The translations under genes were made by a program, and so were the position numbers. The notes beneath the pieces are model-generated. The model was not told the DNA's origin. It worked only from the letters and a program-made list of their open reading frames with translations, and searched no databases. A stretch of 64,000 bases of DNA from Mobula hypostoma (lineage: Eukaryota): positions 21,514,001 to 21,578,000 of the forward strand of contig NC_086108.1 in assembly GCF_963921235.1 (NCBI RefSeq), read 5' to 3'. Every line of letters starts with the position of its first letter. Position 1 is the stretch's first letter. Of this stretch, positions 1,934 through 47,572 are shown piece after piece.

Positions 1934-2359
1934 AAACAACAGGAATTCTGCAGATGCTGGAAATTCAAGCAACACACACCAAAGTTGCTGGTGAACGCAG
2001 CAGGCCAGGCAGCATCTCTAGGAAGAGGTGCAGTCGACGTTTCAGGCCGAGACCCTTCGTCAGGACTAACTGAAGGAAGAGTGAGTAAGGGATTTGAAAG
2101 CTGGAGGGGGAGGGGGAGATGCAAAATGATAGGAGAAGACAGGAGGGGGAGGGATAGAGCCAAGAGCTGGACAGGTGATAGGCAAAAGGGGATACGAGAG
2201 GATCATGGGACAGGAGGTCCGGGAAGAAAGACGGGGGGGGGACCCAGAGGATGGGCAAGAGGTATATTCAGAGGGACAGAGGGAGAAAAAGGAGAATGAG
2301 AGAAAGAATGTGTGCATAAAAATGAGTAACAGATGGGGTACGAGGGGGAGGTGGGGATA
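1934..2359 (-). mobile_element. Penelope-like element terminal (pseudo-LTR) fragment carrying a hammerhead ribozyme
   Basis: Near-identical to 11345-11750 and 43022-43445; the latter is the 3' end of the RT/GIY-YIG element at 37624. Probable TSD aaataaaaa(c/t)gt at 1922-1933 and 2360-2371. Confidence 0.85.
2032..2067 (-). ncRNA. Minimal type I hammerhead ribozyme motif
   Basis: Minus strand AGUC-CUGACGA-AGGGUCUCGGCCU-GAAAC-GUC-GACU: CUGANGA and GAAA core, stem I AGUC/GACU, GUC cleavage triplet. Confidence 0.8.
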
Positions 2360-3824
2360 AAATAAAAATGTTATTGCTTTTTAAAGTTCACATCCCTGAT
2401 AACAGAGATAGAGAAAACAGTTCTTAGAAACTAAACAGGAGACAACCAAAAGGTGAACTTCTGCGATCCAAGTCAAATATTAAAAGGCACAGACACAAGA
2501 CAGCAAGGACACCATTTTGTGCAAACCAAAACATTAGTACAAAAGGGTATTAGCTAAAATTGGAGAATGTTTCAAACTACTAAATAAACAACGTACAAAA
2601 TGATAGACATAATAAGCATTTAGAATGATTTGTATGTCAGGGATGACACAAAAAAAAGATTTCTTTGTCATGACCTGAAAGACACTGAGTGATGAAAATT
2701 ATTTCTCAGTCTTAAACGGATGAACAGGATTGGACAAGTTTACTCTCTCACCTGTATTGAGAATATTCAATAGCAAACCAGGTTTGCTTGCCCAACTGAT
2801 GAATCAAATATACAATTTCCAGGGCCGTAACATGATCTGAAACCTTTCCAATGCAACATATTTGCAATATATGTCAAGCTTATCAGCTAGCATTGCCAAT
2901 TTACATTACTTGAAAACTAGCAACAGCACTGATTTAGGAGATGTCTCTTTTCATCAACAGCTTTTACCCTCACTGCCTATTTACCACACTGTGAAGCATT
3001 AATTTTCCAGATCCTTGCTCAAACTCAAAATCCACCACTTCATGCTTAGAAAATAATCAACTTGAATTTATCAAACTCACTGACACAGATGTTAATACCG
3101 TGAACCAACATCTATCTGTCTTAACTGAGCTGATACGTTCACATAACAGAAAGGAAAAATAATAGGATTTTATTTACTGAGTTTTGTGTTGCTTAAGTTA
3201 ATGTTATTGTATTTATCATGGCTCCATTATATGAAATCTGAGACCATTGAATCTCCACTTCTCTTCAGAAGTCCAACTTCCCACTCCTGACACCAAACCT
3301 GTGGGAGTCCCTGAAGCTTTCAGTACTGCATCCAGTTGAAATGCTCAACAGAACATGTTTTTAAGTACCAACAACTGATTCTTACAATGTTCTAATAGTC
3401 TAATTTTAGTATCACCGTTGAGTTACCCATCTTTGGCTAATCGAATATCATCAACGAAATTCCAACAATGGCTTTTTTTCTGCTATTGCCCATAGGACCA
3501 ATTCATTCAGAAACAACAAATAATTTGGAAAAGATAACTATTATCATGGTTTTGTTTTACTACGGTTGTCAGAGCAACAAAGAGAAAGCATGTACTTATC
3601 TTCACAACAAAAACATAGACTTACCCTCCGAAATGATATCAGATAAAATGTATCTCCTTTCCTACGGATGGCTTCAAAGAAGCTTGGATAATGTCTGTCT
3701 GGCACATAATAAACTTGCAATTCATTCCCTGAGTTTCTGTGAAGGTGAGAAGTATGGGTTAAAATACGAGAAACATGAGGCAATACTGCTAAAAGTATGA
3801 TCTAAAAGGAAAAAAATATGTAAG

Positions 3825-5420
3825 ACCATAAGACACAGGAGAATTAGGCCATTCAGCACATCAATTCTGCTCCACCATTCCATCACGGCTAATTTATTAT
3901 CCCTCTCAATTCCATTCTCCTACCTTTGCCCCGTAACCCCCAACACCCTGACTAATCAAAAACCTATCAACTTCCACGTTAAATATACTTAATGACTTGG
4001 CCTTCACAGAATTTATTGTGGCAATAAATTCTATAAATCTGTCTAAGTCCCTCTGCAGACTCCCTGCCTATCCAGCTATCTTCCTGTCATCTGCAAATGT
4101 GGCCACAAAGCCATCAGTTCAGACATCTAAATCTTCGATATACACAACACCACTAGTCACCGGGAGCCAACCAGAAAGTCCCCCTTTATTCCCAGTACCA
4201 GACTCCTGCTAGTCAGCCAGTCTTCTATTTGTGCCAGTGTCTTTCCTATAATATCATAGGTCTTATCTTGTTAAGCAGCCTCATGTGCAGCATTTTATCA
4301 AGGCCCTTCTGAAAATCCAAATAAACAACATCCATTACCTGTCCTTTGTCTACCTTGCCTGTTATTTCCTCAAAGAATTCCAACAGATTTGTCAGGCAAG
4401 ATTTCCCCTTAAGGAAACCATGCTGACTTTGGCCTACTTTATCTTGTACTTCCAAATACCCGAACCTCTTCCTTCATAATCAATTCCAATATCTTCCCCA
4501 ACCACTGAACTCAGGCTAATTAGCCAAGAACTTCCTTTCTTATGTCTCTATCTCTTCTTAAAGAATGGATTGACATTTGCAATTTTCCAGTTCCCTGGAA
4601 CTATTCCGAGTCTAGTGACTCTTGAAAGATCACTGCTAATGCCTCCACAATCTCTTAAGCTACCTCTTCTAGAACCCTAAAGTGTAGTACATCTGGTCCT
4701 GGTAACTTAATTACCTTCAGACCTTTCAGCTTCCCAAGTACCTTCCCCTTAGTAATAGCAGCTAAACACATTTCTGCCCCGACACTCTCAAATTACTGGA
4801 ATACTGTCAGTGCCTTCCATAGTGATGACAGATGCAAAGTACTTATTAAGTTTGTCCACCATTTTTTGTCCCCCATTACTACCTCTCCAGCAGTCCAATA
4901 CCCACTCTCGCCTCTCCTTTACTCTTTACATATTGAAAACAACCTTTGGTATCCTCTTTTATATTATTAGCTCACTTACCTTCATATTTCATCATTTCTC
5001 TCATGGTTTTTTCAGTTGCCTTCTGTTGGTTTTCAAAAGCTTCCTAATCTAACTTCACACTAATTTTTGCTATATTATATGCCCCATCTTTGGCTTTTAT
5101 GCTGTCTTTGATTTCCTTCGTCAGCCACAGTTGCCTCATCCACCCTTTAGAATACTCATTTCGTCTTTGGGATACATCTTTCCTGCGTCATCCGAATTTT
5201 TCCCATTACTGTTCTGCCATTATCCCTGCTAGTGTCCCTTTGCAATAACTTTGGCCAGCTCTTCCCTCATGCCTCTGTAATTCCCTTGACTCCACTGTAA
5301 TAGTGATACATCTGACTTTATCTTCACCCTCTCAAATAGCATGGTGAATTCTATCATATTATGATCACTGCTTCGTAATGGTTCCTCTACCTTAAGCTCT
5401 GTAATCAAAACTAGTCATAA
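3825..5420 (-). mobile_element. Degenerate CR1 LINE fragments (ORF2 and 3' end)
   Basis: ORF 4246..4455 has SQHGFLKGKSCLTNLLEFFEE...VDVVYLDF-like motifs; 3' UTR-like sequence near 3825-4030; many stops and deletions. Confidence 0.85.
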
Positions 5421-6314
5421 AGAAGAAAACCAATTAATCAATCTCTGAACATTCGCAAAGTTCTAACTTGGAAATGAAAAATATTGGTTTAAGAAGGAAG
5501 ATGATTGACGATTGAGTGCTTTAACAAAATTTATTCCAAATAAATTGCTTCCACACATTTTAGATTTCTGAAGCATGATTTGTTCTGCCTGAACTGTTGT
5601 TTTTACATTGAGACAAACTTATGTCTTTGTAAAGAAGTGACATATAGGCATGATCATCAAGATATGGATGTCAGTCAAGATTTTTCCCTCATTTCCAATT
5701 GATGCCAACTATTGGTCAATATTTCCATATGCAAGCTATGTCATCAACATAATTAGCTGATGTCTTTCACTCAACACAAATATTAGAAAATGTGTAAAAT
5801 TTTCTGCAATCAGTTGATTTTCCAAACAGCAACATTGAATCGCAGCCAGTTCCAAGAGACATTTCCTTCTATAACCAGCATCTAAATTCCTCTTCAAGAG
5901 AACCAGATGCTGGTTCTGGAAGGAAGTATCTGAAATTTTTATCATTACTCCTGCCCAAGATAGCTTTAAGGTATTAATCACTGCACAGTGCAATGCTTTG
6001 GGATTCCAGCCTTAAACTAGCTGTATATTCTGCAAACCTGGACTGACACGACAGTTCACTCAGGAATGCAGCAGTTCAGGAAAGAAGCAACAGCTTATTG
6101 TGATTAGCTACTCATTATGGGAGTTATGCTTGGGTACAGCAGGCTCATGAAGATAAATAATACTTACTAGTCATCATATACAGAATGGTAAACATGGACG
6201 ACAAATGGGCTTCACCAATTAAAGATTATAAAATGCTCAATTACACAGTCTGAAGAGCAAAATACATGGCAAAGGACCCACAATCAATTTGTGCACATTC
6301 TGGTCAGTCTATAG

Positions 6315-6394
6315 CAGGAGTTCCCAACATGGGGTCCACGGACCCCACCGTTAAAGGTAAGGGTCCATGGCATAAAAAAGGTTGGGAACCCCTG
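6315..6394. mobile_element. 80-bp hAT-type MITE
   Basis: TIRs caggagttcccaac / gttgggaacccctg; perfect 8-bp TSD gtctatag at 6307-6314 and 6395-6402. Confidence 0.9.
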
Positions 6395-6632
6395 GTCTAT
6401 AGATTGACTGCAGCGCTCAAGTGGGCCTCTAAGATATTAAGGAGATAATCAACTGCTGAACACAATGCTGAGGAAAACCCCCTTCATCATGTCAAATGTT
6501 TGGATTTCTGAGGAAACTTTGGCTTTTCAGCTTCTAAGTGAGGAGATGCTGCAGTGCTGAACTTGCATTAATATTAAAGGATATAGTAGAGTTAACTGGA
6601 AAATCCCTTTTTTGTAAATTGTTGGTATGGTA

Positions 6633-7614
6633 CAGGGTGAGGGAACCTTATCCAAAATATTTGGGACCGGCAGTGTTTCAGATTTTAAAATACTTGCATC
6701 TATAGAATGGGACCCAAGTCTAAACACAAAATCCATTTACAAAACATATACAGCTTATGTACAGCTGGCTGGTATGAAGCCCACAGTGAACAGTCCACAA
6801 TTGGAGCAGTCTGACATCCTCCACAAACAGTCAGAGTTGAATGACTACCTCCAATCATGTCTATTACCATGTTTCAGTATAGTGATTGGCTTCATATCTG
6901 CCATCGATTTCAAACCACTGCCGTTCCATCACAGCTACAATGGGGGAGAGATAGTTTTATATAATACTTTTATTAATTTTGAACATGAAAGAATAATGTG
7001 TACATCGAACCATCAGAACCCCAGGTGGACAATCAGTGGCTGTTTGGCATCCCATTATTCCCGACTCTGAATTTATGTGCTACCGGTTAGCAGCCTTTGT
7101 CTTGAGCTTGTTCATCACACAAATGTATTGATGCAGCCGTTCAGTGCGTTAGATTTTCATCAGCAGCGATCCTGGCAAACTCAATGAATTTCTCTGCTGA
7201 TTTGTGATCAGCAGAGGCTTATCATCACAAATCTTTTAAAAAGTTAATGCCATGACCCTTCTTATATTTCTGCAACCAATCTGCTGAATATTCACAATTA
7301 CCTTCAATTTTCATTTCATCGTGATAGATATATTTGCTTGTTTCATACCAACAATACCATTAAGCAGCATATTCTTACTCCAATGCTGACGATACACCAT
7401 CAAGATAGCCATTTTTCACTTTATGCAGTGTTTTTCTATTTTTCATTAACATATGGGAAGTCACTTCTCAGAACTGTCTGTGGTGCACACAGTCTGGGAA
7501 CCTTCCCTGCACCATGCAGAATTTTCAAACTGTGATATCATGTCAGGGCTCAATAATTTTGAATTTCAGATTTTTTTCAGGTTTTGGAATTTCAGATAAG
7601 AGGTGCTCAACCTG
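6633..7614 (-). mobile_element. Non-autonomous Tigger/pogo DNA transposon
   Basis: TA-flanked TIRs cagggtgagggaaccttatcc / gataagaggtgctcaacctg; EYSADWLQKYKK transposase remnant on the minus strand near 7250-7295. Confidence 0.7.
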
Positions 7615-8035
7615 TACAAGGTAATAAAAAATCAAAGCAGGAAATTACTTTGTTTATTACAGTCGTCTATAGAGTCATGGATTTTCTGATTACACAGAGA
7701 AATTGAAATTAGATTAGATTAGATTCAACTTAATTGTCATTGTGCTGAGTACAGATACAAAGCCAATGAAATGCAATTAAGACACTGAGCCTCGTGATAC
7801 ACACGCGCCGCAGCCATTTTATCCTTAGCAAAGAAAAATGGTTCACTTACAATCCTGACAATCAGAAACTTAGTGTCTTTACCCAGCATTGGTGTACCGG
7901 TTCTTTATATACAAGTGTGTTTAAATGAGGGGAATGGTTTCCTTTGTTAAGTAGTTTTCTTTGTTTTTTTTATACAAGGTTAATCAAGCCATTCAGAGTG
8001 GACTGTAAAACAGTTATTTGTCATTGAGTACAATA

Positions 8036-11281: not shown

Positions 11282-11344
11282 ACTTAAAACTTAAATTTCT
11301 TCGACATCTTAAAAAAATTTTGAACAATGCATCATCAACCATCT

Positions 11345-11750
11345 GTTATTTATTTTTTGACACATATTCTTTCTCTCACTCTCCTTTTTCTCCCTCTGTC
11401 CCTCTGACTATACCCCTTGCCCATCCTCTGGGTTCCCCCCCCCGCCCTTGTCTTTCTTCCCAGACCTCCTGTCCCATGATCCTCTCGTATCCCCTTTGCC
11501 AATCACCTGTCCAGCTCTTGGCTCCATCCCTCCCACTCCTGTCTTCTCCTATCATTTTGGATCTCCCCCCTCCCCCTCCCACTTTCAAATCTCTTACTAA
11601 CTCTTCCTTCAGTTAGTCCTGACGAAGGGTCTCGGCCTGAAATGTCGACTGTTCCTCTTCCTAGAGATGCTGCCTGGCCTGCTGCGTTCACCAGCAACTT
11701 TGATGTGTGTTGCTTGAATTTCCAGCGTCTGCAGAATTCCTGTTGTTTAC
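11345..11750 (+). mobile_element. Penelope-like pseudo-LTR fragment
   Basis: Reverse complement of the 1934-2359 family sequence. Confidence 0.85.
11615..11650 (+). ncRNA. Minimal hammerhead ribozyme motif (variant GAAAU)
   Basis: agtc-ctgacga-agggtctcggcct-gaaa-tgtc-gact; C>T change in the stem III palindrome. Confidence 0.65.
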
Positions 11751-12810: not shown

Positions 12811-13045
12811 AACACAAAATACTCTGCAGATGCTGGGGTCAAAGCAACACTCACAAACGCTGGATGAACTCAGCAGGTCGGGCAGCATATGTGGAAACGA
12901 CGAGTCGACGTTTCCGGCCGGAACCCTTCGTCAGGACTGTAGAGGGAAGGGGCAGAGGCCCTATAAAGAAGGTGGGGGGAGGGTGGGAAGGAGAAGGCCT
13001 GGCCTTTCGGGTTCCGGCCCGAAACGTCGACTCATTGTTTCCACG
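12811..13045 (-). mobile_element. Penelope-like terminal fragment with a short inverted copy of its end
   Basis: Hammerhead motif on the minus strand at 12903-12938; inverted partial copy gggttccggcccgaaacgtcgactc at about 13009-13033. Confidence 0.8.
12903..12938 (-). ncRNA. Minimal hammerhead ribozyme motif
   Basis: Minus strand AGUC-CUGACGA-AGGGUUCCGGCCG-GAAAC-GUC-GACU. Confidence 0.7.
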
Positions 13046-13559
13046 TATATTTTTTTGCATAGCACTTAAAGCCAAATTGGAGAGGTCACTGGTTTAAAAA
13101 AAAGCAACACTTAAGTCTTTGTTTTAGTAAACTCTTACACTGAACTGATTTCGTAACCTATGGACTCTCTTTCAAGAACTCTACAACTCATGTTCTCAGT
13201 ATTATCTACCTATTTATTGTATTCGCACAGCTTGTCTTCTTTTGCATATGTTTTGTCAGAATATGCCTGCAAATTTTCATCAGTTCTATGGTATTTCTTT
13301 GTTCTATTGTGAATACCTGCATGAAAATGAATCTCAGAGTAGTATATGGTGACATATATGTACTTGGATAATAAATTTATTTTTAACTTTGGTTTCCTCC
13401 CTCCTAGCACAGATAACACCTAAGTAGACAGCTGTTTACTCATTCCTGTTTTGCCTCCTGAGAAATAGGTTAGTATTCTGAAAGAGATCCATCTATGGCA
13501 CAATATAAAAATATTAAGCTGGGCCAATAAACCTACTTACATCAATGACAATAAAAGTT

Positions 13560-20615: not shown

Positions 20616-23600
20616 CCAGCAATGGAAAGGGAAAAACTTCGAAAGAAAAATCGGAAGATATGCCTGTCTGGGCTGAGCGTTTAGAACGTGCGTTGATGGC
20701 TCTTGACAAGAAAGTAGACAATAACACTTCTGAGATGAAGTCGTTCTGACAGAGTTTTCAGTTTGTAGAGGAAAATATTATTTCCTTGAATACTGAGCTT
20801 AAAGAGTCGAAGCGTCAGACAGCAAATATTTCAGCTCGCTTGGAACAGGATAGTCGATTTAGAAGCAAGATCTCGTCGGAATAACATTCGAATTGTTGGA
20901 CTGAAGGAAGGTTCTGAGAGTGGGAATTTATTGGACTATTTTGCTAATTTGTTTCAATTGCTGTTTCCGGATATTCTACCTCAGCCTCCCGCTATTGAGG
21001 GAGCACACAGAATTTTCTGAAATCTCAAGATTCAGCTAAATCATGGGTAATTTTGGTCAGTTTTCTTAGTTTTATAGTTAAAGACCAAATCATAAAATGT
21101 GCAAGAAAACAGAGAGTTTTTAAATTTAATGGCTCCGAGATTCGTTTTTATGAAGATTATCCACGGGAAGTTATGGAACAGCGGATCAAATTTGTTCCAG
21201 CTATGAAGATAGCCCATGCTAAGGGATTATTCCCATCACTTCGCTATCCAGCCTGGTTATTTCCTAAAGATTCAACTCCATGTGTTTTTTTGGATCCCCA
21301 AGAGGCATTGGACTATGTTAATTCTATTTTGGAGGTGGCTGAGGTCTGAATGGTATTAGGGCTGCTGAATAACTTTTCGAAAGAAAACAGGCTTTGAAGA
21401 TTTCTGATATGTTGAAGATATCCTTTGATCGATGGACTATTTAAAGAAGATGTGAGCTTCTTGATTTGACTGATGGATGACTTTTCCGAAGTCTGCTTGG
21501 TTTACTGAGTGAATTAACACAACAGACAGATTGTTAACTGGTTTGATTATCTGTTTTTATTTTTCCTTTTCTTCATTAATTAAGTGATAGTTTATATAGA
21601 CTTTTGCTTATATACATATATAGCGAGGAGTGCTGAGTAAATAGTTAATTAGTTTTAGTTTTTCCTGTCAAAAACAGTGTTTTTTCATCAGGCAGCAAGT
21701 CAAAGGGATAATGGTGCCGATTTTTTTCGTTAGAGATTATATTGTTTAGGTCTAATTTTATTGCTTTGACGTCTCTAGAGAATGTTTTTGCATTCCCCAG
21801 TTTATTTTTAATGATTAAGTATAAACACCATTTTTTTTCTCTGTAGGGCTTTATCATCTTGGGACCGTGTGTTTTTTTTGTAAAGGGGAGGGGGGAATTA
21901 AGAAAAACTTTTAAAATTACTATTTAAATTGAGTAGCTCGCAGAGTTCTGTTTCTTTTTTCTTTTCCTATGGGGATGCATTCCGGCTTATTTCTTCTTTT
22001 TGTCGGATTTCTATCTTTTGGGATGGTGGGAGGATTGGGGGTAGTATTGAATTATAGGTCTTACAGTTGGATTAATTTTATTTTTTTTCGTTTTTTTTCT
22101 CTTCTCGTATTTTTTCCCATTATGGAGTTCCAGAGCATGCGTGTTTTCAATATGGTTATACTCATCACCGCCATTTTTGATTAGCCCGCATTGGTATGCA
22201 CGTATTTTCGTGTTAAAAAAAATATTTTATGGCAGTTAAACAGATAAACGTTATCAGTTGGAACGTACGTGGCTGGAATCACCCTATTAAGCAAAATAAG
22301 ATTTTTAAGACATTGGAAGGACCTTCAATATCATGCCACTTGTCAAAATAAAACAAAGGGGGTATCTATTTTTATTAAATCTAATATTTTATTTATCCAA
22401 GAAGATATCGTGTCAGATATTAATGGTAGATTTTTAATTGTCAAAGGAACAATTTGTAATAGAAAAATTGCTCTGGTTGATCTATATGGACCTAATGTAG
22501 GTGATCTTTCTTTTTTTAAAAATGTAAACAACAGGAATTCTGCAGATGCTGGAAATTCAAGCAACACACATCAAAGTTGCTGGTGAACGCAGCAGGCCAG
22601 GCAAGAATAATATGTTGGATCTGGAGGCTGGTGGGGTGGTAGGTGAGGACCAGGGGAACCCTATTCCTAGTGGGGTGGCGGGAGGATGGAGTGAGAGCAG
22701 ATGTACGTGAAATGGGGGAGATGCGTTTAAGAGCAGAGTTGATAGTGGAGGAAGGGAAGCCCCTTTCTTTAAAAAAGGAAGACATCTCCCTCATCCTAGA
22801 TAGAATAATATGTTGGACCCGGAGGTTGGTGGGGTGGTAGGTGAGGACCAGGGGAACCCTATTCCTAGTGGGGTGGCGGGAGGATGGAGTGAGAGCAGAT
22901 GTACGTGAAATAGGGGAGATGCGTTTAAGAGCAGAGTTGATAGTGGAGGAAGGGAAGCCCCTTTCTTTAAAAAAGGAAGACATCTCCCTCGTCCTAGATA
23001 GAATAATATGTTGGACCTGGAGGCTGGTGGGGTGGTAGGTGAGGACCAGGGGAACCCTATTCCTAGTGGGGTGGCAGGAGGATGGAGTGAGAGCAGATGT
23101 ACGTGAAATGGGGGAGATGCGTTTAAGAGCAGAGTTGATAGTGGAGGAAGGGAAGCCCCTTTCTTTAAAAAAGGAAGACATCTCCCTCGTCCTAGATTTT
23201 TAGAATAATATGTTGGACCCGGAGGCTGGTGGGGTGCCTGGCCTGCTGCGTTTACCAGCAACTTTGATGTGTGTTGATTGTTTTCTTAAAAATGTATCTG
23301 GTTTATTGCCAGATTTAAATGAATAAATGTTGTTAATGGGTGGTGATTTTAACTCTTGTTTAAATCCTTTGATTGACAAGAGTTCAACCAATCAGCGGCT
23401 TCCGAGTTGTTCAGCATCACTTATTAACTCTTTTTTAATTGATTATGGTTTGATCGAAATCTGGAGAAATTTAAATCCTGATGATAGAGATTATTCTTTT
23501 TATTCACATGCTCATAAAAAATATTCGAGAATTGATTATTTTATAGCTGATTTTCAATTTTTATCCAAAGTCCAGAAATGTGAATATGACGCTATCGCCG

Positions 23601-32412: not shown

Positions 32413-32429
32413 TCATCAGCTCAGAGATT

Positions 32430-33190: not shown

Positions 33191-33199
33191 AGCTCCACC

Positions 33200-37622: not shown

Positions 37623-37623
37623 T

Positions 37624-39395
37624 GGGGTGCTGTTGTAGTCTGGTGTACCGACCTCTAACTTGCCGAGGCACAGCGACAACTCGCGGATACCTCCTCTTAT
37701 TTACCCCTCGATCATGACTCCACTAAGGAGCACCAGGCCATTATCTCCCACACCATCACCAACTTTATCAGCTCAGGGGATCTCCCATGCACTGCTACCA
37801 ACCTTATAGTTCCCACACCCCGTACTTCCCGTTTCTATCTCCTACCCAAGATCCACAAACTGCCTGTCCAGGTAGACCCATTGTCTAAGCTTGCTCCTGC
37901 CCCACTGAACTCATTTCTGCATACCTCGACACTGTTTTATTCCCCCCTTGTTCAATCCCTTCCCACTTCGTGAGTCATCTCATGCTCTGAATTTTTTCAA
38001 TGAATTTAAGTTCCCTGGCCCCCACCGCTTTATTTTCACCATGGATGTCCAGTCCGTATATACCTCCATCCCCCACGAGGAAGATCTCAAAGCTCTCCGC
38101 TTCTTTTTGGATTCCAGACCTAACCAGTTCCCCTCTACCATCACTCTCCTCCGTCTAGCGGAATTAGTCCTTATTCTTAATTTCTCCCTTGGCTTCTCCC
38201 ACTTCCTCCAAACTAAAGGTGTAGCCATGGGCACCCGTATGGGTCCCAGCTATGCCTGCCTTTTTGTTGGCTTTGTGGAACAATCCATGTTCCAAGCCTA
38301 TACAGGTATCTGCCCACCACTTTTCCTTCGCTACCGACGACTGCATTGGCGCTGCTTCCTGCACGCATGCTGAGCTCGTTGACTTCATTAACTTTGCCTC
38401 CAACTTTCACCCTGCCCTTAAGTTTACCTGGTTCATTTCCGACACCTTCCTCCCCTTTCTTGATCTTTCTGTCTCTATCTCTGGAGACAGCTTATCTACT
38501 AATGTCTACTATAAGCCTACGGACTCTCACAGCTACCTGAACTATTCCTCTTCCCACCCTGTCTTTTGTAAAGATGCCACTTCCTTCTCACAATTCCTCT
38601 GTCTCCGCCGCATCTGCTCTCAGGATGAGGCTTTTCATTCCAGGACAAAGGAGATGTCCTCCTTTTTTAAAGAAAGGGGTTTCCCTTCCTCCACCATCAA
38701 CTCTGCTCTCAAACACATCTCTCCCATTTCACGCACATCTGCTCTCACCTTATCCTCCTGCCACCCGACTAGGAATAGGGTTCCCCTTGTCCTCACCTAC
38801 CACCCCACCAGCCTCCGGGTCCAACATATTATTCTCCGTAACTTCTGCCACCTCCAATGGGATCCCACCACTAAGCACATCTTTCCCTCCCCCCCCCTTT
38901 ACTCCTTTCCACAGCAATCGCTCCCTATGCGACTCCCTTGTCCATTTGTTCCCCCCATCCCTTCCCACTGATCTCCCTCCCGGGACTTATCCTTGTAAGC
39001 GGAACAAGTGTTACACATGCCCTTACACTTCCTCCCTCACCACCATTCAGGGCCTCAGACAATCCTTCCAGGTGAGACGACACTTCACCTGTTAGTCGGC
39101 TGGTGTGATATACTGTGTCCGGTGCTCCTAATGCGGTCTTCTATATATTGGCGAGACCCAACGCAGGCTGAGAGGTCGTTTCGCTGAACACCGATGCTCT
39201 GTATGCCAGAAAAAGCAGGATCTTCCAGTGGCCACACATTTTAATTCCACGTCCCATTCCCATTCTGATATGTCTATCCACGGCCTCCTCTATTGTCAAG
39301 ATGAAGCCACACTCAGGTTGGAGGAACAACACTTTATATTCCGTCTGGGTAGCCTCCAACCTAATGGCATGAACATTGACTTCTCTAACTTCCGT
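37624..39395 (+). mobile_element. Penelope-like element RT + GIY-YIG endonuclease, frameshifted
   Basis: FYLLPKIHK, FTMDVQSVYTSIP, GVAMGTRMGPSYA, PFLDL, YYKPTDSH, CKRNKCYTC, VIYCVRC...LLYIGET; continues at 43022 after the CR1 insertion. Confidence 0.92.
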
Positions 39396-42300
39396 TATAA
39401 CCATATAATAATTACAGCACGGAAACCGGCCATCTCAGCCCTTCTAGTTCATACCGAATTCTTACTCTCACCTAGTCCCACCAACCTGCACTCAGCCCAT
39501 AACCCTCCATTCCTTTCCTGTCCATATATCTATTATGCTATTAAATGCTGTTCAATTTAACTTTAAACAACAACATCGAACCTGCCTCAACCACTTCTGC
39601 TGGAAGCTCGTTCCACATAGCTACCACTCTCTGAGTAAAGTAGTTCCCCCTCATGTTACCCCTAAACTTTTGCCCTGTAACTCTCAACTCATGTCCTCTT
39701 GTTTGAATCTCCCCCACTCTCAATGGAAAAAGCCTATCCACATCAACTCTATCTATCCCCCCTCATAATTATAAATACCTCTATCAAATCCCCCCCTCAA
39801 TCTTTTACGTTTCAAAGAATAAAGACCCAACTTGTTCAACCTTTTTCTGTAACTTAGGTGATGAAACCCAGGTAACATTCTAGTAAATCTCCTCTGTACT
39901 CTCTCTATTTTGTTGACATCTTTCCTATAATTCGGTGACCAAAACTGTACACAATACTCCAAATTTGGCCTCACCAATGCCTTCTACAATTTCAACATAA
40001 CATCCCAACTCCTATACTCAATGCTCTGATTTATAAAGGCCAGCATACCAAAAGCTTTCTTCACCAGCCTATCCACGAGATTCCACCTTGAGGGAACTAT
40101 GCACCATTATTCCTAGATCCCTCTGTTCTACAGCATTCTTCAATGCCCTACCATTTACCATGTATGTCCCATTTTGATTCGGCCTACCAAAATGTAGCAC
40201 CTCACATTTATCAGCATTAAACTCCATCTGCCATCTTTTAGTCCACTCTTCTATCTGGCCTAAATCTCTCCGAAAGCTTTGAAAACCTACTTCATTATCC
40301 ACAACTCCACCTATCTTTCTTTCTTTTTCAATCTTTTCATTAGTTTCATAAAATATAAACATAACATAATAATAGTACAAAGTTATTGGGAATACATTGT
40401 TGTACTTAACATGAATAATTATAGAACCAAATAATACTTAATTAACAGAACTCCAAATCATATAGGATACCAATGAATAATATAGAACAAAATTGTTTCC
40501 TTTACCTGACACAATTCAATATCCTTCTCCTTAGTGAATACCGAAGAAAAGAAATTGTTCAGAATCTCCCCCATCTCTTTTGGCTCCACACATAGCTGTC
40601 CACTCTGATTCTCCAAAGGACCAATTTTATCCCTCACTATCGTTTTGCTATTAATATAACAGTAGAAACCCTTGGGATATATTTTCACCTTACTTGCCAA
40701 AGCAACCTCGTATCTTCTTTTAGCTTTTCTAATTTCTTTAAGATTTTTTTTATATTCCTCAAGCACCTCATTTACTCCATGCTGCCTATATTTGTTGTAG
40801 ATATCTCTCTTTTTCCGAACCAAGTTTCCAATATCCCTTGAAAACCATGGCTCTCTCAAACTTTTAACCTTTCCTTTCAACCTAACAGGAACATAAAGAT
40901 TCTGTACTCTCAAAGTTTCACCTTTAAATGACATCCATTTCTCAATTACATTCTTCCCATAAAACAAATTGTCCCAATCCACTCCCTCCAAGTCCTTTCG
41001 CATCTCCTCAAAGTTAGCCTTTCTCCAATTAAAAATCTCAACCCTGGGTACAGTCCTATCCTTCTCCATAATTATATTGAAACAAATAGCATTGTGATCA
41101 CTGGACCTGAAGTGCTCCCCAACGCAAACCTCCGTCACCTGACCTATCTCATTCCCTAACAGGAGATCCAACACTGCCCCTTCTCTAGTTGGTACCTCTA
41201 TAGTTTTTTGCAGCAATATATCTTGCACATATTTTACAATCTCCAAACCATCCAGCCCTTTTACAGTATGGGCTTCCCAGTCTATGTGTGGAAAATTAAA
41301 ACCTCCCACAATCACAACATTGTGCTTACTACAAATATCTGCTATCTCCTTACAAATTTGCTCCTCCAATTCTCGCTCTCCATTTGGTGGTCTATAATGT
41401 ACCTCTATAAATGTCACTACACTTTTCCCATTCCTCAATTCCACCCAAATAGCCTCCCTAGACGAGCCCTCTTATCTATCCTGCCAGAGCACCGCTGTAA
41501 TATTTTCTCTGACAAGCAATGCAACACCTTCCCCTCTTGTCCCTCTGATTCTATCATACCTGAAACAATTAAATCCAGGAATACTTAGTTGCCAATCACA
41601 CCCCTCCTGTAACCATGTTTCACTAATAGCTACCACATCATATTTCCAGGTATCAATCCATGCTTTCAGCCCATCCACCTTCCTTATAATGCTCCTAGCA
41701 TTAAAATAAATGCATTTAAGAAATTTTCCACCTCTTACTCTCTGGTTATCACTCATGGTGCAAACAACTTTACTATTTTCTTTTTCTTCCTTCTTCCCTA
41801 CATCTGTTCCAACACTCTGGTTCCCCTCCCCCATCGTATCTAGTTTAATTCCACCGAAGCCTCTCTAGCAAACCTACCTTCAAGAATATTTGTCCCCATC
41901 CAGTTCAGATGTAGACCGTCCCGCCGGAACAGGTCCCACCTTCCCTGGAAAACTGCCCAATTATCTATAAATCTGAAGCCCTCCCTCCTGCACCATGTCT
42001 TCAGCCAAGTGTTGATCTGCGCTATCCTACTATTTCTAAACATGCTTGCATGTGGCACTGGTAGCAATCCTGACCCTAACCCTATCCTGGAGGTCCTGTC
42101 CTTTAACTTGGCACCTAACTCCCTAAACTCACCTTTCAGGACCTCCTCACTCTTCCTACCCACGTCATTGGTCCTTACATGGACCACGACATCCGGCTGC
42201 TCACCCTCCCTCTTGAGAATACCAAGAACTTGATCAGAGATACCACGGACCTTGACACCAGGGATGCAACAGACCATCCGGGATTCTCGATCTTTTCCAC

Positions 42301-43021
42301 AGAACCTCTTATCTATCCCTCGAACTACCAAATCTCCTATCACTACTGCTCTCCTCTTTTCCCTCCTTCCCTTCTGAGTTGAGGATCCCATCTCGGTGCC
42401 AGAGACGCAACCACTGCAACTTATCCCTGGTAGGTCGTCACCATCAACAGTATCTAAAACAATGTACTTATTATTGGTGGGAACGGCCACAGAGGTGCTC
42501 TGCTCATTCTGTCTCTTCCCCTTCCCTCTCCTGACAGTCACCCAGCTACCTGTCTCCTGACTCTTAGGGGTGACTATCTCCCTGTAACGCCTCTCTATTT
42601 CTGCCTCTGCCTCACAAATGATCTGAGGTTCATCCAGCTCCAGCTCCAGTTCCCTAACTCGGTTTGTCAAGAACTGCAGCTGGATGCACCTTTTAGAGGT
42701 GTAGTCATCAGGGACAATTGTGCTCGCCCTGACCTCCCACATCCTGCAAATGGAGCACTCAACTGCCCTAACTGCTGCCTCCATTACCTACTCCTTAGGT
42801 AACTAGATTTATTAAAGGAACTTACCCAACCTTACCTCACTTGGAGTGAAGCTCTTCCTTAGCCTCTGCTCGCCGAAGCCTCAGGAGCCAAAGCCTTCCT
42901 ACTCTGTCTCCCTCTACTGCGTCGCCCACTCCGTTAATCTGCTCTCTTTTAAACACTCCCGCTGCCTCACAGTCCAACTTACACGCGCTTGCACAGTCGT
43001 GGCCCGTTCAACTGCGAAGAA
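39396..43021 (-). mobile_element. CR1 LINE with open ORF1 and internally deleted RT, inserted into the Penelope element
   Basis: ORF1 41840..42784; APE at 40458..41834; ORF2 C-terminus about 39540-40315; ccatata tail near 39400. Confidence 0.93.
41840..42784 (-). CDS. CR1 ORF1p (zinc finger/leucine zipper + SGNH esterase fold), 314 aa
   Basis: CSICRMWE, LTNRVRELELEL, IGDLVVRG, HVRTNDV, RDGLHLN; open reading frame. Confidence 0.8.
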   Translation of the reverse strand: MEAAVRAVECSICRMWEVRASTIVPDDYTSKRCIQLQFLTNRVRELELELDEPQIICEAEAEIERRYREIVTPKSQETGSWVTVRRGKGKRQNEQSTSVAVPTNNKYIVLDTVDGDDLPGISCSGCVSGTEMGSSTQKGRREKRRAVVIGDLVVRGIDKRFCGKDRESRMVCCIPGVKVRGISDQVLGILKREGEQPDVVVHVRTNDVGRKSEEVLKGEFRELGAKLKDRTSRIGLGSGLLPVPHASMFRNSRIAQINTWLKTWCRREGFRFIDNWAVFQGRWDLFRRDGLHLNWMGTNILEGRFAREASVELN

Positions 43022-43445
43022 AATGCCCCACCCTCCCTTCATACCCCGTCCCTTATTTATTTATTATTCTTATTTTCTTTTCTTTTCCCTTTTTATGTCT
43101 CTTTTTTCTCCCTCTTTCCCTCTCACTATAACTCCTTGCCCATCCTCTGGGCTTCCCCGCTCCTTTTCTTTCTCCCTAGGCCTCCCATCCCATGATCCTC
43201 TCCCTTCTTCAGCCTGATATCTCTTTTGCCAATCAACTTTCCAGCTCTTATCTCCATCCCTCCCCCTCGTGTCTTCTCCTATCATTTCAGATCTCCCCTC
43301 CCCCTCCCACTTTCAAATCTCTTACTATCTCATCTTTCAGTTAGTCCTGACGAAGGGTCTCGGCCTGAAACGTCGACTGTACCTCTTCCTATAGATGCTG
43401 CCTGGCCTGCTGCATTCACCAGCATTTTTTTATGTGTGTTGCTTG
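43022..43445 (+). mobile_element. Penelope 3' pseudo-LTR (continuation of 37624-39395)
   Basis: Resumes with aatgcccc, the sequence that follows the ORF stop in the related copy near 56340; same family as 1934-2359 and 11345-11750. Confidence 0.85.
43343..43378 (+). ncRNA. Minimal hammerhead ribozyme motif
   Basis: agtc-ctgacga-agggtctcggcct-gaaac-gtc-gact, identical to the motif at 2032-2067. Confidence 0.8.
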
Positions 43446-44264
43446 TTACAACAGAGCTTGTTTTACTGAGAGATTACTACATTACCAATGTGATCTTAAC
43501 AGAAAAACTGGAAAATACCTGAACAATATCACCCCATCAGGCATAGCACCTATTATTGCCTACATCTGAGTCCATCTTGTGGAACTTAACATCAACTAAG
43601 ACCTGGTTTTGTTCTACCTCATCATTTCACACTTTGCTGACATTGACTCAACCAGCTGAAAAATCCTCAACTTAGACGAAGGTAGCATAAAAATTCACCA
43701 AAATCTTCTTCACAATGTTCAACTCTCAGACATCATGTCAAATGACTTCTATCCTTGGTGGTTTCTCTGGCAAAGTAGCTCTTCAGTTGGAATCATGGGA
43801 AGGTTGGACAAGCTGTCCTTAATGTTGTGCAAGATCTGAATCCACAAAAATAGCTGGGTCATACACTCACTCTGAGCTAAGAACAAACTGCTAAAACAGC
43901 TTACCGGGTCAAGCAGTATCAAAGGGTGGGGGGGCGGGTGAGTAAATGTCAGCAGTTTGGATTGAGAGACCCTGCATCAGGACACATAGGTGCTGCCTGA
44001 CCAGCTGAGTTCCTCGAGCTGTTTTTTTGCACTAGTCTGCAGCTAATGCAGACTCCCTTCAGTCCTGACCTGATGGGTCATGATACTATGGTTAGAAGAG
44101 TTGTTAATAACCACAACATAGATCCATCAATAGATGGTTAACTATTTAACTTAAGTATCAGTCCAGACACAAAGAACCAATAAGGCTGTAGACTCAATGA
44201 AGCCTAGGCTTCCCGTCTGCAACTCATTTTCAAGGTTGCATTCAAAGCACATTCACCTAAGCGC

Positions 44265-47025
44265 CTTTAGGTACATTAAGAGTAAAAGGGTGTTGAGGGA
44301 GTGCATGGATCATCTTAAGATCAGCATGGCAGTCTGTCTGCAGAGCCAAATGAAACTGGTGAGATTTTTAATGGAGTACTGTGCTCAGTTCTGGTCGCCT
44401 CACTATAGGAAGGATGTGGAAACCATACACATACAAAGGGTGCAGAGAATATTTACAAGGATGTTCAAGCAACACACATAAAAGTTGCTGCAGCCAGGCA
44501 GCATCTCTAGGAAGAGGACTGGGGAGCATGCCTTATGAGAATAGGTTGAGTGAATGCGGCCTTTTTTCCTTGAAGCAACAGAGGATGAGAGGTGACCAGA
44601 CAGAGGTGTATAAGATGATGAGAGGCATTAATCGTGTGGATAGTCAGAGGCTTTTCCCCAGGACTGGAATGGCTAGCATGAGAGGGTACAGTTTTAAGGT
44701 GGTTGGAAGTAGGTACAGAGGAGATGTCAGAGGTATGTTTTTTGTGCAGAGAGTGGTGAGTGCGTGGAATGGGCTGCCGGCGACAGTGGTGGAGGCAGAT
44801 ACGATAGGGTCTTTTAAGAGACTTCTGGGCAGGCACATGGAGCTCAGAAAAATAGAGGGCTATGGGTAACCCTAGGTAATTTCTAAGGTAAGGACATGTT
44901 CGGCAAAGCTTTGTGGGCTGAAGGGCCTGTATTATGCTGTAGGTTTTCTATGTTTCTATTTCACTTCCGTTTTTACTGGGGAGAAAACAACAATGGAATT
45001 TGGGGAAATAAGTGGTATTATGTTAGACTACAAACCAGTAGGGAGGAAGTGCTGGTCACCCTAAAGGGCATTAAGTGGATAAGTTATCAGAGCCTAACCT
45101 AGTGTATTCCTGGACCTTGTAGAAAGCTAAAAAAGAAATTCTTGAGGCCCTTGCAGAGATTTTTACTTCACCTCCAGCCACAGGTGAGGACTCACAGGAC
45201 TGGAGAATGGCTAATTTGGTATCATTGCTTAACAAGGGTATCAACCAAAAACAAGTCAGGGAACTACCGACCAATTGGTCTGACATCAGCAAATGCTGGA
45301 AGGAATTTTAAAGCATGAGATCTACCAAATTTGGAGAGACAGGGTCAAATTTGAGACTCTCAACACAGCTTATTGTGTGGGAAGTTATGTCTGACTAATC
45401 TCTTGGAAGTAACCAAGAAGGTAAATGAGGGTAAGGCAGTGACAGTTGTCTGTATGGGCTTTAGCAAGAATATTTACAAGTGCAGGTGAGTCTATAAAGA
45501 TAGATTACAAAGGATCCAGGGAGAGTTTAGACCCATCAGCGCGTCATTTGTTGGTGGGGAGACTGAAGGAGCTGGACTTGGTGTTGAGCATGTTGCTACC
45601 TGCGCCAGAAAGGAATCAGAGGAATTGTGCACAGTCTAAAAGCAAGTGATTGCCTTACTTGCTTTTCTTTTGATTGCAAGACCCTGTTGGACATTGTTAA
45701 TGTGGAATGCTGCAAATCTAATTCAGTGCTTTATTGGTGTGCAGCAGGGGCAGAAAGGAGATAGATGGCTTCAGTCATAGTGAGGGCCAAGCCTAAAGCC
45801 ACCATGTTGCCTGTTTACATCCGGCCAGGAGAAAGGCATTAGAGTCAGCGCGTTTCACTGGAGGCGGTGCGGCATGGTGTCCACGCTGGAGTCGGTGCTG
45901 CCCCCCACCTTCCCTTCCTCACCCCCCATATTCGCTCGGAGGAAGACAAGCTGTATTGTGTTTGACTGCAGACTGCTGCACCATTCGTGGATTCAGGACT
46001 ATAATTTGTGTGACTGCATTTTACTGATATCTCATATGTCTACTAGCTTATAGTCATAGTCATAACCATAGTCATACTTTATTGATCCCAAGGGAAATTG
46101 GTTTTCATTACAGTTGCACCATAAATAATTAAATAGTAATAAAACCATAAATAATTAAATAGTAATATGTAAATTATGCCAGGAAATAAGTCCAGGACCA
46201 GCCTATTGGCTCAGGGTGTCTGACCCTCCAAGGGAGGAGTTGTAAAGTTTGATGGCCACAGACAGGAATGACTTCCTATGACGCTCTGTGTTACATCTCG
46301 GTGGAAAGAGTCTCTGGCTGAATGTACTCCTGTGCCCAACCAGTCCATTATGTAGTGGATGGGAGACATTGTCCAAGATGGCATGCAACTTGGACAGCAT
46401 CTTCTTTTCAGACACCACCGTCAGAGAGTCCAGTTCCATCCCACAACATCACTGGCCTTACACAATGAGTTTGTTGATCCTGTTGGTGTCTGCTACCCTC
46501 AACCTGCTGCCCAGCACACAACAGCAAACATGATAGCACTGACCACCACAGACTCGTAGAACATCCTCAGCATCGTCCGACGGATGTTAAAGGACCTCAG
46601 TCTCCTCAAGAAAATAGAGACGGCTCTGACCCTTCTTGTAGACAGCCTCAGTGTTCTTTGACCAGTCCAGTTTATTGTCAATTCATATCCCCAGGTATTT
46701 GTAATGCTCCACCATGTCCACACTGATGCCATATATACTTTATGCTGTGTGTGACTGTTGGTACTGTGTTTTGCACCTTGGCCCTGGAGTAACACTGTTT
46801 CATTAGGCTGTGTTCATGTATGGTTGAAAAACATTAAACTCGTACTAATTGCTTCAGTGGAGGATGCAGAGAGTGATTGTTGAGGGTCATTTCTCAGACT
46901 GGAGGCCTGTGTCAAGTGGCTTTCATCCTGGGACCAATGTTGCTTGGAATTTATGTAAACAATTTGGATGCAACTGTACAAGGTGTTGTTAGTAAGTTTG
47001 TGCATGATATCAAAACAGGTGATGT
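44265..47025 (+). mobile_element. Nested cluster: old CR1 pieces, a younger CR1 3' end (about 44370-44960) and an unclassified element (about 45530-46845)
   Basis: YCAQFWSP and AWNGLP motifs; tctatgtttcta tail; older CR1 RT resumes at about 46850. Confidence 0.65.
46050..46730 (-). mobile_element. Rex1/Babar 3' fragment
   Basis: FLRRLRSFNI, SHPLH, RHRKSFLSVAIKLYN; (atagtc)n tail near 46050-46075. Confidence 0.85.
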
Positions 47026-47079
47026 ATGTAATGCCCTGGTTAAGATTTTTACTGCTATGCTGTAGGTATTTCATTTCAA

Positions 47080-47572
47080 CACTCACAACACGTTGGAGGA
47101 ACTCAGCAGGTCGGGCAGCATCCGTGGAAATGATCAGTCAACGTTTCGGGCGGAACCCTTCGTCAGGACTGAAGAGGGAAGAGGCAGAGACGCTATAAAG
47201 AAGGTAGGGGGAGGGTGGGAAGGAGAAGGCTGGTAGGTGCCAGGTGAAAAACCAGTAAGGGGAAAAATAAAGGAGTGGGGGAGGGGAAGGGGAAGCAGGG
47301 AGGGGCTAGGCAGGAAAGGTGAAGAAGGAATAGGGGAAAGCACAATGGGTAGTAGAAGGAGGCAGAACCATGAGGGAGGTGATAGGCAGCTGGGAGAAGG
47401 GCAGAGTGATCTGGGATAGGGGACAGGAGGGGGAGGGAATTACCGGAAGTTGGAGAATTCCATTTTCATACCAAGGGGCTGGAGACTACCCAGACGGTAT
47501 ATGAGGTGTTGCTCTTCCAACCTGAGTTTAGCCTCATCATGGCAGTAGAGGAGGCCATGTATGGACATATCC
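47080..47572 (-). mobile_element. Penelope-like 3' fragment (GIY-YIG C-terminus + pseudo-LTR)
   Basis: Minus strand KLRLEEQHLIYRLGSLQPLGMKMEFSNFR-stop, followed by a hammerhead-bearing end. Confidence 0.85.
47135..47171 (-). ncRNA. Minimal hammerhead ribozyme motif (GUU site)
   Basis: CAGUC-CUGACGA-AGGGUUCCGCCC-GAAAC-GUU-GACUG, with a 5-bp stem I. Confidence 0.75.

What the first reader, a model, noticed from the sequence alone, without database searches (positions are those of the whole stretch)
2032..47171. Dispersed minimal hammerhead ribozymes carried by Penelope-derived repeats
Seen: five motifs with a complete CUGACGA...GAAA core and closing stem I (2032-2067 minus, 11615-11650 plus, 12903-12938 minus, 43343-43378 plus, 47135-47171 minus), plus decayed or truncated ones (about 13010, 43950, 56520, 56700, 58600). 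The stem II loop varies (GUCUCGG, GUUCCGG, UUCCG) while the core is kept. Established: Penelope-like elements carry minimal type I hammerheads with a palindromic rudimentary stem III thought to work as dimers. The 43343 copy is physically linked to an RT/GIY-YIG ORF. About one motif per 6-7 kb implies a very large genomic ribozyme population (inference).
Basis: partly seen in the sequence, partly recalled or inferred. Interest (0 to 1): 0.72.

Follow-up and report, generated by a model that had tools for sequence, protein, structure and literature searches.

The report
Known Penelope hammerheads in ray DNA
The five short motifs are real copies of the small hammerhead ribozyme sequence that Penelope-like jumping genes are known to carry near their ends; here they are lone, slowly decaying leftovers of past jumps, so the catch is right but ordinary.

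Summary
Observation confirmed. A strict descriptor finds exactly the five motifs (null: 0 in 40 simulated windows). They are minimal type I hammerheads in the pseudo-LTR of Neptune-type Penelope-like elements (PLEs) of a cartilaginous fish, probably a ray, a kind described in 2014 (PMC4209133). The 43343 copy does belong to the RT/GIY-YIG ORF at 37626-39395, across a 3.6 kb LINE inserted at the stop codon. Ten of 12 segments end at one of two sites 66 and 102 nt past the scissile bond (the PLE 'tail'), 8 of 12 run uncut through it, and none starts at it. The copied RNA was therefore uncleaved, as reported in vitro for a lizard PLE (PMC11167929). 'Ribozyme population' overstates it: no two intact motifs lie on one strand within 10 kb, only 1 of 5 keeps G10.1-C11.1, all five fold as monomers into an inactive helix, and older copies have lost core bases. 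Cleavage was not tested. The scan already reported this motif in at least eight other windows of this genome and in another genome.

The parts
2031..2068 (-). Minimal hammerhead, family A. Intact core, ACGU palindrome, G10.1.U11.1, stem I of 5 bp; predicted cut 3' of C at 2036.
1932..2360 (-). 5'-truncated family A copy: nearly whole post-ORF UTR, hammerhead, downstream module and tail (long end, site 2)
   Evidence: (P0001 residues 372-408 match 2355-2245)
11614..11651 (+). Minimal hammerhead, family A. Palindrome mutated to AUGU (private change at 11643); predicted cut 3' of 11646.
11341..11750 (+). 5'-truncated family A copy with tail. Contigs of related copies leave the reference at 11712/11713 and at 11748.
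12903..12938 (-). Minimal hammerhead, family B. 10.1-11.1 pair broken (G.G, private change at 12915).
12811..13048 (-). Family B copy with tail (about 12811-13005), preceded by an inverted fragment of the same hammerhead (13009-13048, + strand)
22514..23280 (-). Family A rearranged insertion: inverted downstream-module fragment (23235-23280), 3.2 tandem copies of a 198-bp ORF-internal piece, then module plus tail starting about 25 nt 3' of the cut site; no hammerhead
37626..39395 (+). 5'-truncated, frameshifted Neptune-type PLE ORF: RT, thumb region, C-x4-C-xx-C linker, GIY-YIG endonuclease
39398..43022 (-). Nested CR1-type LINE (esterase ORF1, AP endonuclease, internal deletion) inserted at the PLE stop codon; not part of the PLE
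43023..43445 (+). Post-ORF UTR, hammerhead and downstream module of the 37626-39395 element (short end, site 1)
43342..43379 (+). Minimal hammerhead, family A. Intact core and palindrome, G10.1.U11.1; predicted cut 3' of 43374.
43940..44070 (.). Old composite: decayed hammerhead on the minus strand joined to a plus-strand downstream module and the start of a second hammerhead
44459..44518 (-). Family A downstream module only, starting about 7 nt 3' of the cut site (short end)
47134..47172 (-). Minimal hammerhead, family B. The only copy with G10.1-C11.1; GUU triplet; stem I of 6 bp; predicted cut 3' of 47140.
47077..47586 (-). Family B copy with contiguous GIY-YIG C-terminus, UTR, hammerhead and module (short end)
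56157..56826 (+). Old family C unit: GIY-YIG C-terminus, UTR, inverted fragment (56494-56515) and two decayed hammerheads in partial tandem (about 56515 and about 56695, some 180 nt apart), both with damaged cores
58535..58623 (-). Family A copy 5'-truncated inside the CUGA box (short end)

Best explanation
The motifs are the minimal type I hammerhead of the pseudo-LTR of Neptune-type Penelope-like retroelements, from at least three related families in a ray genome. How it most likely works: (1) SHOWN in the DNA: the order is ORF end, pyrimidine-rich UTR, hammerhead, a conserved ~100-nt module, then one of two end points 36 nt apart. (2) INFERRED from the lizard PAc system: the element's RT/GIY-YIG protein nicks AT-rich DNA and starts cDNA internally at those two points, 66 and 102 nt 3' of the scissile bond. 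It copies backwards through the hammerhead and usually stops early, leaving short dispersed ends, sometimes with inverted or tandem pieces. (3) SHOWN for the copies here: the template was uncut at the hammerhead. (4) INFERRED: the ribozyme is off by default. Helix III can form only when two ACGU palindromes pair, and the monomer prefers a G5-A6-C7-G8 / C15.2-G16.2-U16.1-H17 helix. It cuts slowly and only in tandem transcripts of active masters, probably helped by the element's protein, trimming the precursor or removing the priming site rather than making the template. (5) The solitary genomic copies have no partner, decay neutrally and are not a working ribozyme population.
For: Five motifs against a null of about 0. 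EN C-terminus contiguous with UTR and hammerhead at 47586-47134 and 56157-56540; the 43343 copy is linked across a LINE, since P0001 reads through the same junction and an X9 contig shows it uninterrupted. ORF 84-89% identical to predicted Mobula/Hypanus proteins, with full-length RT+GIY-YIG relatives. Linker C-x4-C-xx-C fits the Neptune/Nematis definition (PMC8557442). 10 of 12 segments end at two sites; contig loose ends pile at 11712/3 and 11748 in three runs, with low-agreement AT-rich flanks. 8 of 12 span the cut site and 0 of 12 begin at it. Inactive monomer fold is 2.3-4.0 kcal/mol more stable than the open core in 5 of 5. Old copies at about 56515 and about 56695 have lost G12 and G16.2. 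In other animals' contigs the same motif lies 59-248 bp 3' of a PLE ORF in 28 of 123 loci, and stem I covaries (16 of 56 flank pairs with 3 or more Watson-Crick pairs against 2.5 shuffled, maximum 9 in 2000). Literature: PMC4209133, PMC11167929.
Against: No cleavage was measured. The roles of protein and dimer are carried over from Schistosoma and Anolis elements of other clades. The runs laid are assembled contigs of uncertain type and cannot show RNA ends, and only 24 of 844 loose-end rows and 40 of 233 variant rows were shown, so a minor pile-up at the cut site cannot be excluded. The end sites here are GU-rich on the sense strand, whereas PAc initiates in an 'AC-rich stem loop'. No full-length or tandem intact element lies in this window. 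Clade was called from motifs, without a tree. 92 of 123 outside loci had no PLE protein hit within the flank held.
Confidence: 0.82

Rival explanations
1. A large population of working host-level ribozymes: dispersed copies in introns and UTRs cleave host transcripts as trans-dimers and shape RNA levels or make circular RNAs.
For: Very high copy number: 8,702 and 8,157 contigs of two runs lie on 1.8 kb holding two copies. Three of five copies keep both core and palindrome. Tandem retrozymes derived from PLEs exist in vertebrates (bioRxiv 10.64898/2026.07.22.740005).
Against: Same-strand intact motifs are 10.9, 31.7 and 34.2 kb apart; the only close pair (about 180 nt) has two broken cores. No hammerhead-bearing tandem array among the 11 TRF rows. 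The intermolecular ACGU helix is worth only -1.7 kcal/mol against a 2.3-4.0 kcal/mol inactive fold. Single min-HHRs did not cleave in vitro and dimers cleaved weakly (PMC4209133).
Confidence: 0.05
2. In the dominant family A the hammerhead is already vestigial in the master element: it is kept only because it lies next to the RT-binding and priming module, and it never cuts.
For: Family A has U at 11.1 in 4 of 4 window copies while 17 of 19 other CpG sites are intact, so the master itself lacks G10.1-C11.1. That pair is called highly conserved (PMC4209133) and is C in 103 of 118 outside motifs. Catalytic mutants of the PAc hammerhead still transpose in vitro (PMC11167929). Naiad PLEs succeed without canonical hammerheads (PMC8557442).
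Against: All core nucleotides and the palindrome are kept between families A and B, whose upstream UTRs do not align. G.U (or an A-U register) still closes stem II. Stem I covaries across animal families, which needs selection on the fold. The PAc motif cleaves when protein is added (PMC11167929).
Confidence: 0.1
3. Cleavage is an obligatory step of transposition: hammerheads cut tandem precursors to unit length, the ends religate to a circle, and reverse transcription of the circle gives copies that span the junction (model proposed in PMC4209133).
For: A religated circle would also give copies that span the cut site, so 8 of 12 spanning copies do not exclude it. The 3.2 x 198-bp tandem at 22604-23236 shows that this RT can iterate on a template.
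Against: PAc insertion in vitro is unaffected by inactivating the ribozyme, and no RNA-seq reads began or ended at its cut site (PMC11167929). 0 of 12 segments begin at the cut here. The 198-bp repeat has no hammerhead and its junctions look like template switches (inference).
Confidence: 0.12

Closest known systems
Minimal hammerheads (min-HHR) in the pseudo-LTRs of metazoan Penelope-like elements (Cervera and De la Pena 2014, PMC4209133; parts 1-2 of 4 read, supplement searched for 6 terms)
   Same: Type I topology, full core, no loop 3, palindromic 15.2-16.2, an unpaired base between 9 and 10.1, short helix I (4-6 bp), mostly solitary dispersed copies from truncated PLEs, opposite-strand pairs close together, several consensus families per genome.
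   Different: Helix II is short (3-4 bp; 7-8 bp in Schistosoma). The dominant family has G10.1.U11.1. The host is a cartilaginous fish, not named in the text or supplement text that I searched (figures held as pictures were not seen).
PAc (Poseidon from Anolis carolinensis) hammerhead and internal RT initiation (Frangieh et al. 2024, PMC11167929; parts 1-2 of 4 read)
   Same: Hammerhead a short way 5' of two RT start sites that define a 30-40 nt tail; AT-rich targets; uncleaved RNA as the template.
   Different: PAc is Poseidon clade, and its ORF starts inside stem II. This element has the Neptune-type linker, its ORF start could not be located, and its end sites are GU-rich on the sense strand.
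Non-LTR retrozymes of animals (bioRxiv 10.64898/2026.07.22.740005; part 1 of 5 and passages read, supplements closed)
   Same: Type I hammerhead derived from PLE pseudo-LTRs.
   Different: Retrozymes are head-to-tail tandem arrays with a complete hammerhead in each unit. Here the copies are solitary truncated ends of autonomous elements.
Neptune clade EN+ PLEs (Craig et al. 2021, PMC8557442; passages from two term searches)
   Same: [quoted passage not shown]
   Different: Nematis shares the linker and was not excluded by a tree; no full-length copy in the window.

Membership tests
PLE minimal hammerhead (min-HHR) | Conserved core CUGANGA, GAAA, UH in type I order | tested here: met
   5 of 5 motifs
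PLE minimal hammerhead (min-HHR) | Helix I of 4-5 bp or more closing the motif | tested here: met
   5, 5, 4, 5 and 6 bp; no compensatory change among the window's five, covariation only in outside loci
PLE minimal hammerhead (min-HHR) | No loop 3; palindromic positions 15.2-16.2 | tested here: met
   ACGU in 4 of 5; the fifth (AUGU) is a private change, with C in 92-94% of laid depth
PLE minimal hammerhead (min-HHR) | Unpaired base between 9 and 10.1 and a helix II | tested here: met
   A after A9 in 5 of 5; helix II of 3-4 bp
PLE minimal hammerhead (min-HHR) | G10.1-C11.1 pair (highly conserved, not absolute) | tested here: inconclusive
   G-C in 1 of 5, G.U in 3 (family trait), G.G in 1 (private). 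Outside motifs: C in 103 of 118, U in 8.
PLE minimal hammerhead (min-HHR) | Location in the pseudo-LTR of a PLE | tested here: met
   about 250-330 nt 3' of the GIY-YIG stop at 47586-47134, and at 39395/43023-43379 once the LINE is set aside
PLE minimal hammerhead (min-HHR) | Site-specific self-cleavage as a dimer or with protein | not testable with these tools
   Needs an in vitro assay or raw RNA ends; only contigs were available
EN+ Penelope-like element | Single ORF with RT and C-terminal GIY-YIG endonuclease | tested here: met
   RVT_1 E 1e-4 and GIY-YIG E 0.008 on window pieces, both below the curated cut-offs; 79-93% tblastn identity along P0044 and P0001, 68% on one frameshifted stretch; full-length relatives carry PF00078 and PF01541
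EN+ Penelope-like element | Optional 30-40 bp tail | tested here: met
   Two end sites 36 nt apart: 5 and 5 of 12 window segments; contig loose ends at 11712/3 and 11748
EN+ Penelope-like element | Partial-tandem and inverted 5'-truncated arrangement | tested here: met
   Inverted pieces at 13009-13048, 23235-23280, 56494-56515 and about 43950; partial tandem at 56515-56826
EN+ Penelope-like element | Retained spliceosomal intron in the 5' UTR | tested here: inconclusive
   Pyrimidine tract plus AG directly before helix I in all three families, and a branch-point-like heptamer in one copy; but the whole UTR is about 80% pyrimidine, no GTRAG or GTAA donor was found in the six UTR stretches scanned, and no splice joint was listed
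Neptune clade | C-x2-5-C-xx-C zinc-finger-like linker between RT and EN | tested here: met
   C-K-R-N-K-C-Y-T-C in the window and kept in relatives
Neptune clade | Phylogenetic placement with Neptune rather than Nematis RTs | not tested
   No named reference sequences were at hand; by elimination only Neptune and Poseidon were reported in vertebrates
Non-LTR retrozyme | Tandem units each with a complete hammerhead | tested here: not met
   0 of 11 TRF rows carry a hammerhead; nearest same-strand intact pair is 10.9 kb apart

The most novel reading that the evidence does not exclude
The dominant ray family carries a deliberately locked ribozyme. A core-sequestering helix (G5-G8 with C15.2-C17) plus a weakened stem II base pair keep it off until the dimeric RT/EN protein, bound at the conserved module 20-100 nt downstream, brings two RNAs together. 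The cut then severs the RT priming site from the coding RNA and acts as a timer that separates translation from copying. A 3' splice site abutting helix I may add a spliced/unspliced switch, as in Drosophila virilis. With a young, very high-copy vertebrate family, this would make the long-open role of PLE hammerheads testable from genome ends alone.
Probability: 0.15. Interest if true: 0.55.

Novelty: new member of a known kind. Interest (0 to 1): 0.14.

Why it matters
Little is new in kind. The motif, its dimer logic, its dispersal as thousands of single copies and the tail are all published. What the window adds is a clean vertebrate Neptune example in which the hammerhead, the two RT start sites and the ORF can be mapped on one element, and in which the genomic copies themselves show that uncut RNA was the template. 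If the locked, protein-triggered reading held, it would bear on the open question of why most PLE clades keep a ribozyme that they seem not to need for insertion.

Tried and rejected
No whole genome is held, so no genome-wide count or 5'-end census could be made. Rfam at E<=10: 6 weak unrelated matches, no hammerhead. Exact ray-type pattern in metagenome contigs: 0 hits. Sequencing runs: no RNA holder listed among 22; this says nothing on expression. Four of the 22 were laid; table 6 (begin/end pile-ups) was empty, but contigs cannot show ends. Splice-acceptor idea: not supported beyond composition; AG at the same place in 0 of 118 outside motifs; a protein search with the translated hammerhead-module stretch gave 1 hit among 7 candidates, an N-terminal read of the repeat that does not reach the putative junction. 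Stable downstream RNA structure: fold z-scores of the three module-only stretches were -0.7 to -1.8, with different folds in different families, so no conserved structure is claimed. The inactive monomer helix as a universal feature: N7 is A in 44 of 118 outside motifs, so it is not general. Module as N-terminal coding sequence: frames and stops differ between families (read). A two-mismatch scan adds one hit at 61283, as expected by chance (null mean 1.0, n=15). Cofolding two copies gave a non-hammerhead duplex; nearest-neighbour folding does not model the core, so I give it no weight. Literature on rays: a search for Penelope, shark, ray, transposable elements and cartilaginous listed 2 papers, seen as listings only. 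'Shark' had 0 occurrences in the retrozyme preprint (the two prefix terms could not match in whole-word mode) and in PMC8557442. That is too thin to claim absence from print.
Full report
1. Observation. All five motifs are present as stated. A descriptor asking for CUGANGA, a stem II, GAAA, NNUH and a stem I of 4 bp or more returns these five and nothing else at 0 or 1 core mismatch; order-3 Markov simulations give 0 in 40 and a mean of 0.075 in 40. A stricter form that does not tolerate a mismatch at the base of stem II returns 4, against 0-0.02 expected in 150 simulations at each of three orders. Rfam reports no hammerhead at E<=10. The five are not independent events of chance: they are copies of a repeat, 75-97% alike over 90-410 bp, in three families: A (2063, 11619, 43347, 58620, 22600, 44500), B (12934, 47166) and an older C (56520, 56700).

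2. Motif anatomy. Helix I is AGUC/GACU, extended to 5-6 bp in four copies. An unpaired A follows A9. Helix II has 3-4 bp. Helix III is reduced to A15.1-C15.2-G16.2-U16.1 with no loop, a palindrome that can pair only with a second motif. The triplet is GUC (four copies) or GUU (one). These are the features of the min-HHR defined in PMC4209133 (parts 1-2 of 4 read). Damage: 11643 makes the palindrome AUGU and 12915 gives G.G at 10.1-11.1; in contigs of runs X1, X3 and X19, 92-95% of the depth at those places shows the other base, so both are private mutations. Family A has U11.1 in 4 of 4 copies while 17 of 19 other CpG sites in the same stretch are intact, so G10.1.U11.1 is a trait of the master (inference). 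Only 47134-47172 has G10.1-C11.1. In 5 of 5 copies the monomer's lowest-energy fold pairs G5-A6-C7-G8 with 15.2-17, 2.3-4.0 kcal/mol below the open-core fold, while the intermolecular ACGU helix is worth -1.7. The two family C copies have lost G12 and G16.2 and have damaged CUGA boxes.

3. The carrier. tblastn maps a frameshifted RT plus GIY-YIG ORF to 37626-39395 and EN C-termini to 47586-47443 and 56157-56338. Pfam hits on the window pieces are weak (RVT_1 E 1e-4, GIY-YIG E 0.008, below cut-off). The best homologues are predicted Mobula and Hypanus proteins at 80-89% identity, and full-length relatives of 750-950 aa carry RT and, in part, GIY-YIG annotation. I infer a ray host. The linker C-K-R-N-K-C-Y-T-C matches the C-x2-5-C-xx-C motif that marks Neptune and Nematis (PMC8557442, passages); only Neptune and Poseidon were reported from vertebrates in the retrozyme preprint. 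No tree was built. The uninterrupted junction is seen at 56338, in protein P0001 (residues 322-369 at the ORF end, 372-408 in the UTR of the 2063 copy) and in an X9 contig. No clear target-site duplication flanks the LINE.

4. Ends. I counted 12 segments with the downstream module (11 anchors plus 44459-44518). Five end at site 1 (43347, 44500, 47166, 58620, the inverted piece at 23235), five at site 2 (2063, 11619, 12934, 22600, 56700), one runs into a tandem neighbour and one is too diverged. On the 11619 copy the sites are 11712 and 11748, 66 and 102 nt 3' of the predicted cut. Contigs of related copies leave the reference at the same places: 26 contigs at 11712 and 37 at 11748 in X1, 40 at 11748 in X3, 6 at 11713 and 8 at 11748 in X19, with low-agreement (0.43-0.54) AT-rich continuation. 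Flanks of nine window ends are 72% AT against 58% for the window (p about 0.001, 20,000 draws; ends placed by hand, two of them 5-10 bases off). This is the 30-40 bp tail that PMC11167929 traces to two internal RT start sites and AT-rich cleavage (parts 1-2 of 4 read). Inverted 5' pieces and a partial tandem complete the PLE signature (PMC8557442).

5. What the ends say about the ribozyme. Eight of 12 segments run through the scissile bond; four start 3' of it (about +7, +20, +25, +25); none starts at it. None of the 24 loose-end rows shown lies at 11646/11647, but 820 rows were hidden. RT starting at sites 1 or 2 reads toward the cut, so a cleaved template would give copies that begin there. 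The template was therefore uncut, or religated. For PAc, ribozyme mutants insert normally, the motif cuts only when protein is added, and no RNA-seq ends were found at the cut. For Schistosoma, a single motif did not cleave and dimers cleaved weakly.

6. Is the fold under selection? Within the window the core is no better conserved than the adjacent module, and there is no compensatory change in helix I among the five. Of 56 distinct flank pairs, 16 form 3 or more Watson-Crick pairs in 9 sequence types, against 2.5 after shuffling (maximum 9 in 2000; relatedness not corrected). 31 of 123 loci have a PLE protein hit, 28 of them on the same strand 59-248 bp upstream. So selection acts on master elements, and the motif is a general PLE part.

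7. Mechanism. Most likely, the ribozyme is a conditional, off-by-default cutter in the pseudo-LTR that acts only on tandem transcripts of active masters, probably with help from the element's protein (inferred), while insertion uses uncut RNA (shown for these copies, barring religation). The solitary copies, 10.9-34.2 kb from the next intact same-strand motif, are relics. Rivals: obligatory cut-and-circularise (0.12), vestigial motif in family A (0.10), host-level ribozyme population (0.05).

8. A lead that did not hold up. A pyrimidine tract and AG precede helix I in all three families, recalling the D. virilis intron that ends at helix I. The whole UTR is about 80% pyrimidine, no donor consensus was found, no joint was listed, and the protein search was uninformative. 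It stays open.

9. Novelty. The kind is published, including Neptune elements of fishes and 4,000-9,000 motifs per genome in coelacanth and Xenopus. I found no mention of cartilaginous fishes in the supplement text of that paper (one file and picture figures unseen) or in the few searches listed under Tried and rejected, which do not show absence. Supplements of the bioRxiv preprint, which list its 35 species, were closed. The scan has reported the same motif in other windows of this genome (8 shown of 44 fitting notes) and once in another genome; those notes are unchecked and I use them as leads only. PMC544870 (passages) shows only that a lone G10.1-C11.1 pair suffices for an active engineered helix II; that a G.U there lowers activity is recalled, not read. 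Verdict: real, correctly named, new member of a known kind, interest 0.14.

Noticed in passing
window 22514-23280: One insertion holds an inverted module fragment, 3.2 tandem copies (96% alike) of a 198-bp piece from the middle of the PLE ORF, then the module with its tail but no hammerhead. It looks like repeated template switching by the PLE reverse transcriptase during one insertion.
   Followed up: partly
window 39398-43022: CR1-type LINE on the minus strand with an esterase (GDSL-like) ORF1, inserted at the PLE stop codon, internally deleted; a relative lies at about 15750-19830.
   Followed up: partly
window 36950-37625: Fragment that reads like a Tc1/mariner transposase (family recalled from the translated residues, no database hit sought) directly abutting the truncated 5' end of the PLE ORF.
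   Followed up: no
window 61905-63456 (-): Decayed LTR-retrotransposon-like stretch with SCAN domain, zinc knuckle and a weak integrase zinc-binding hit, suggestive of a Gmr1-type gypsy element (recalled).
   Followed up: no
window 11590-11616, 12935-12960 (-), 47167-47190 (-), 56675-56699: Pyrimidine tract plus AG immediately before helix I in all three families; a branch-point-like TACTAAC at about 11595. Possible 3' splice site, unproven.
   Followed up: partly
window 43940-44070: Old composite in which a decayed hammerhead of another family points opposite to the downstream module; its helix I seems to read UGUC/GACA, a possible compensatory change, but the 5' side is at a junction.
   Followed up: partly
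window 11665-11750 and equivalents: A ~50-nt module starting GATGCTGCC is about as conserved between families as the hammerhead; a candidate binding site for the element's protein. No shared stable fold found.
   Followed up: partly
L015, L059, L113, L114: Outside loci with two minimal hammerheads on opposite strands, close together (in L015 and L059 about 50 bp apart), the inverted arrangement described for PLE ends.
   Followed up: no
L010, L016, L025, L060, L092: A group of outside matches with one or two extra bases after CGU (CGUGU, CGUAU) followed by a helix I-like strand: probably the variant with a small palindromic loop 3.
   Followed up: no
P0241: A Mobula birostris predicted coenzyme A synthase begins with about 30 residues translated from the family A module, probably an annotation artefact or exonisation.
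   Followed up: no
window 24275-26580, 27867-29446, 30416-31620, 35972-36796, 44372-44869: Further LINE fragments (RT hits at 24275 and 30416); the window is mostly retroelement debris.
   Followed up: no
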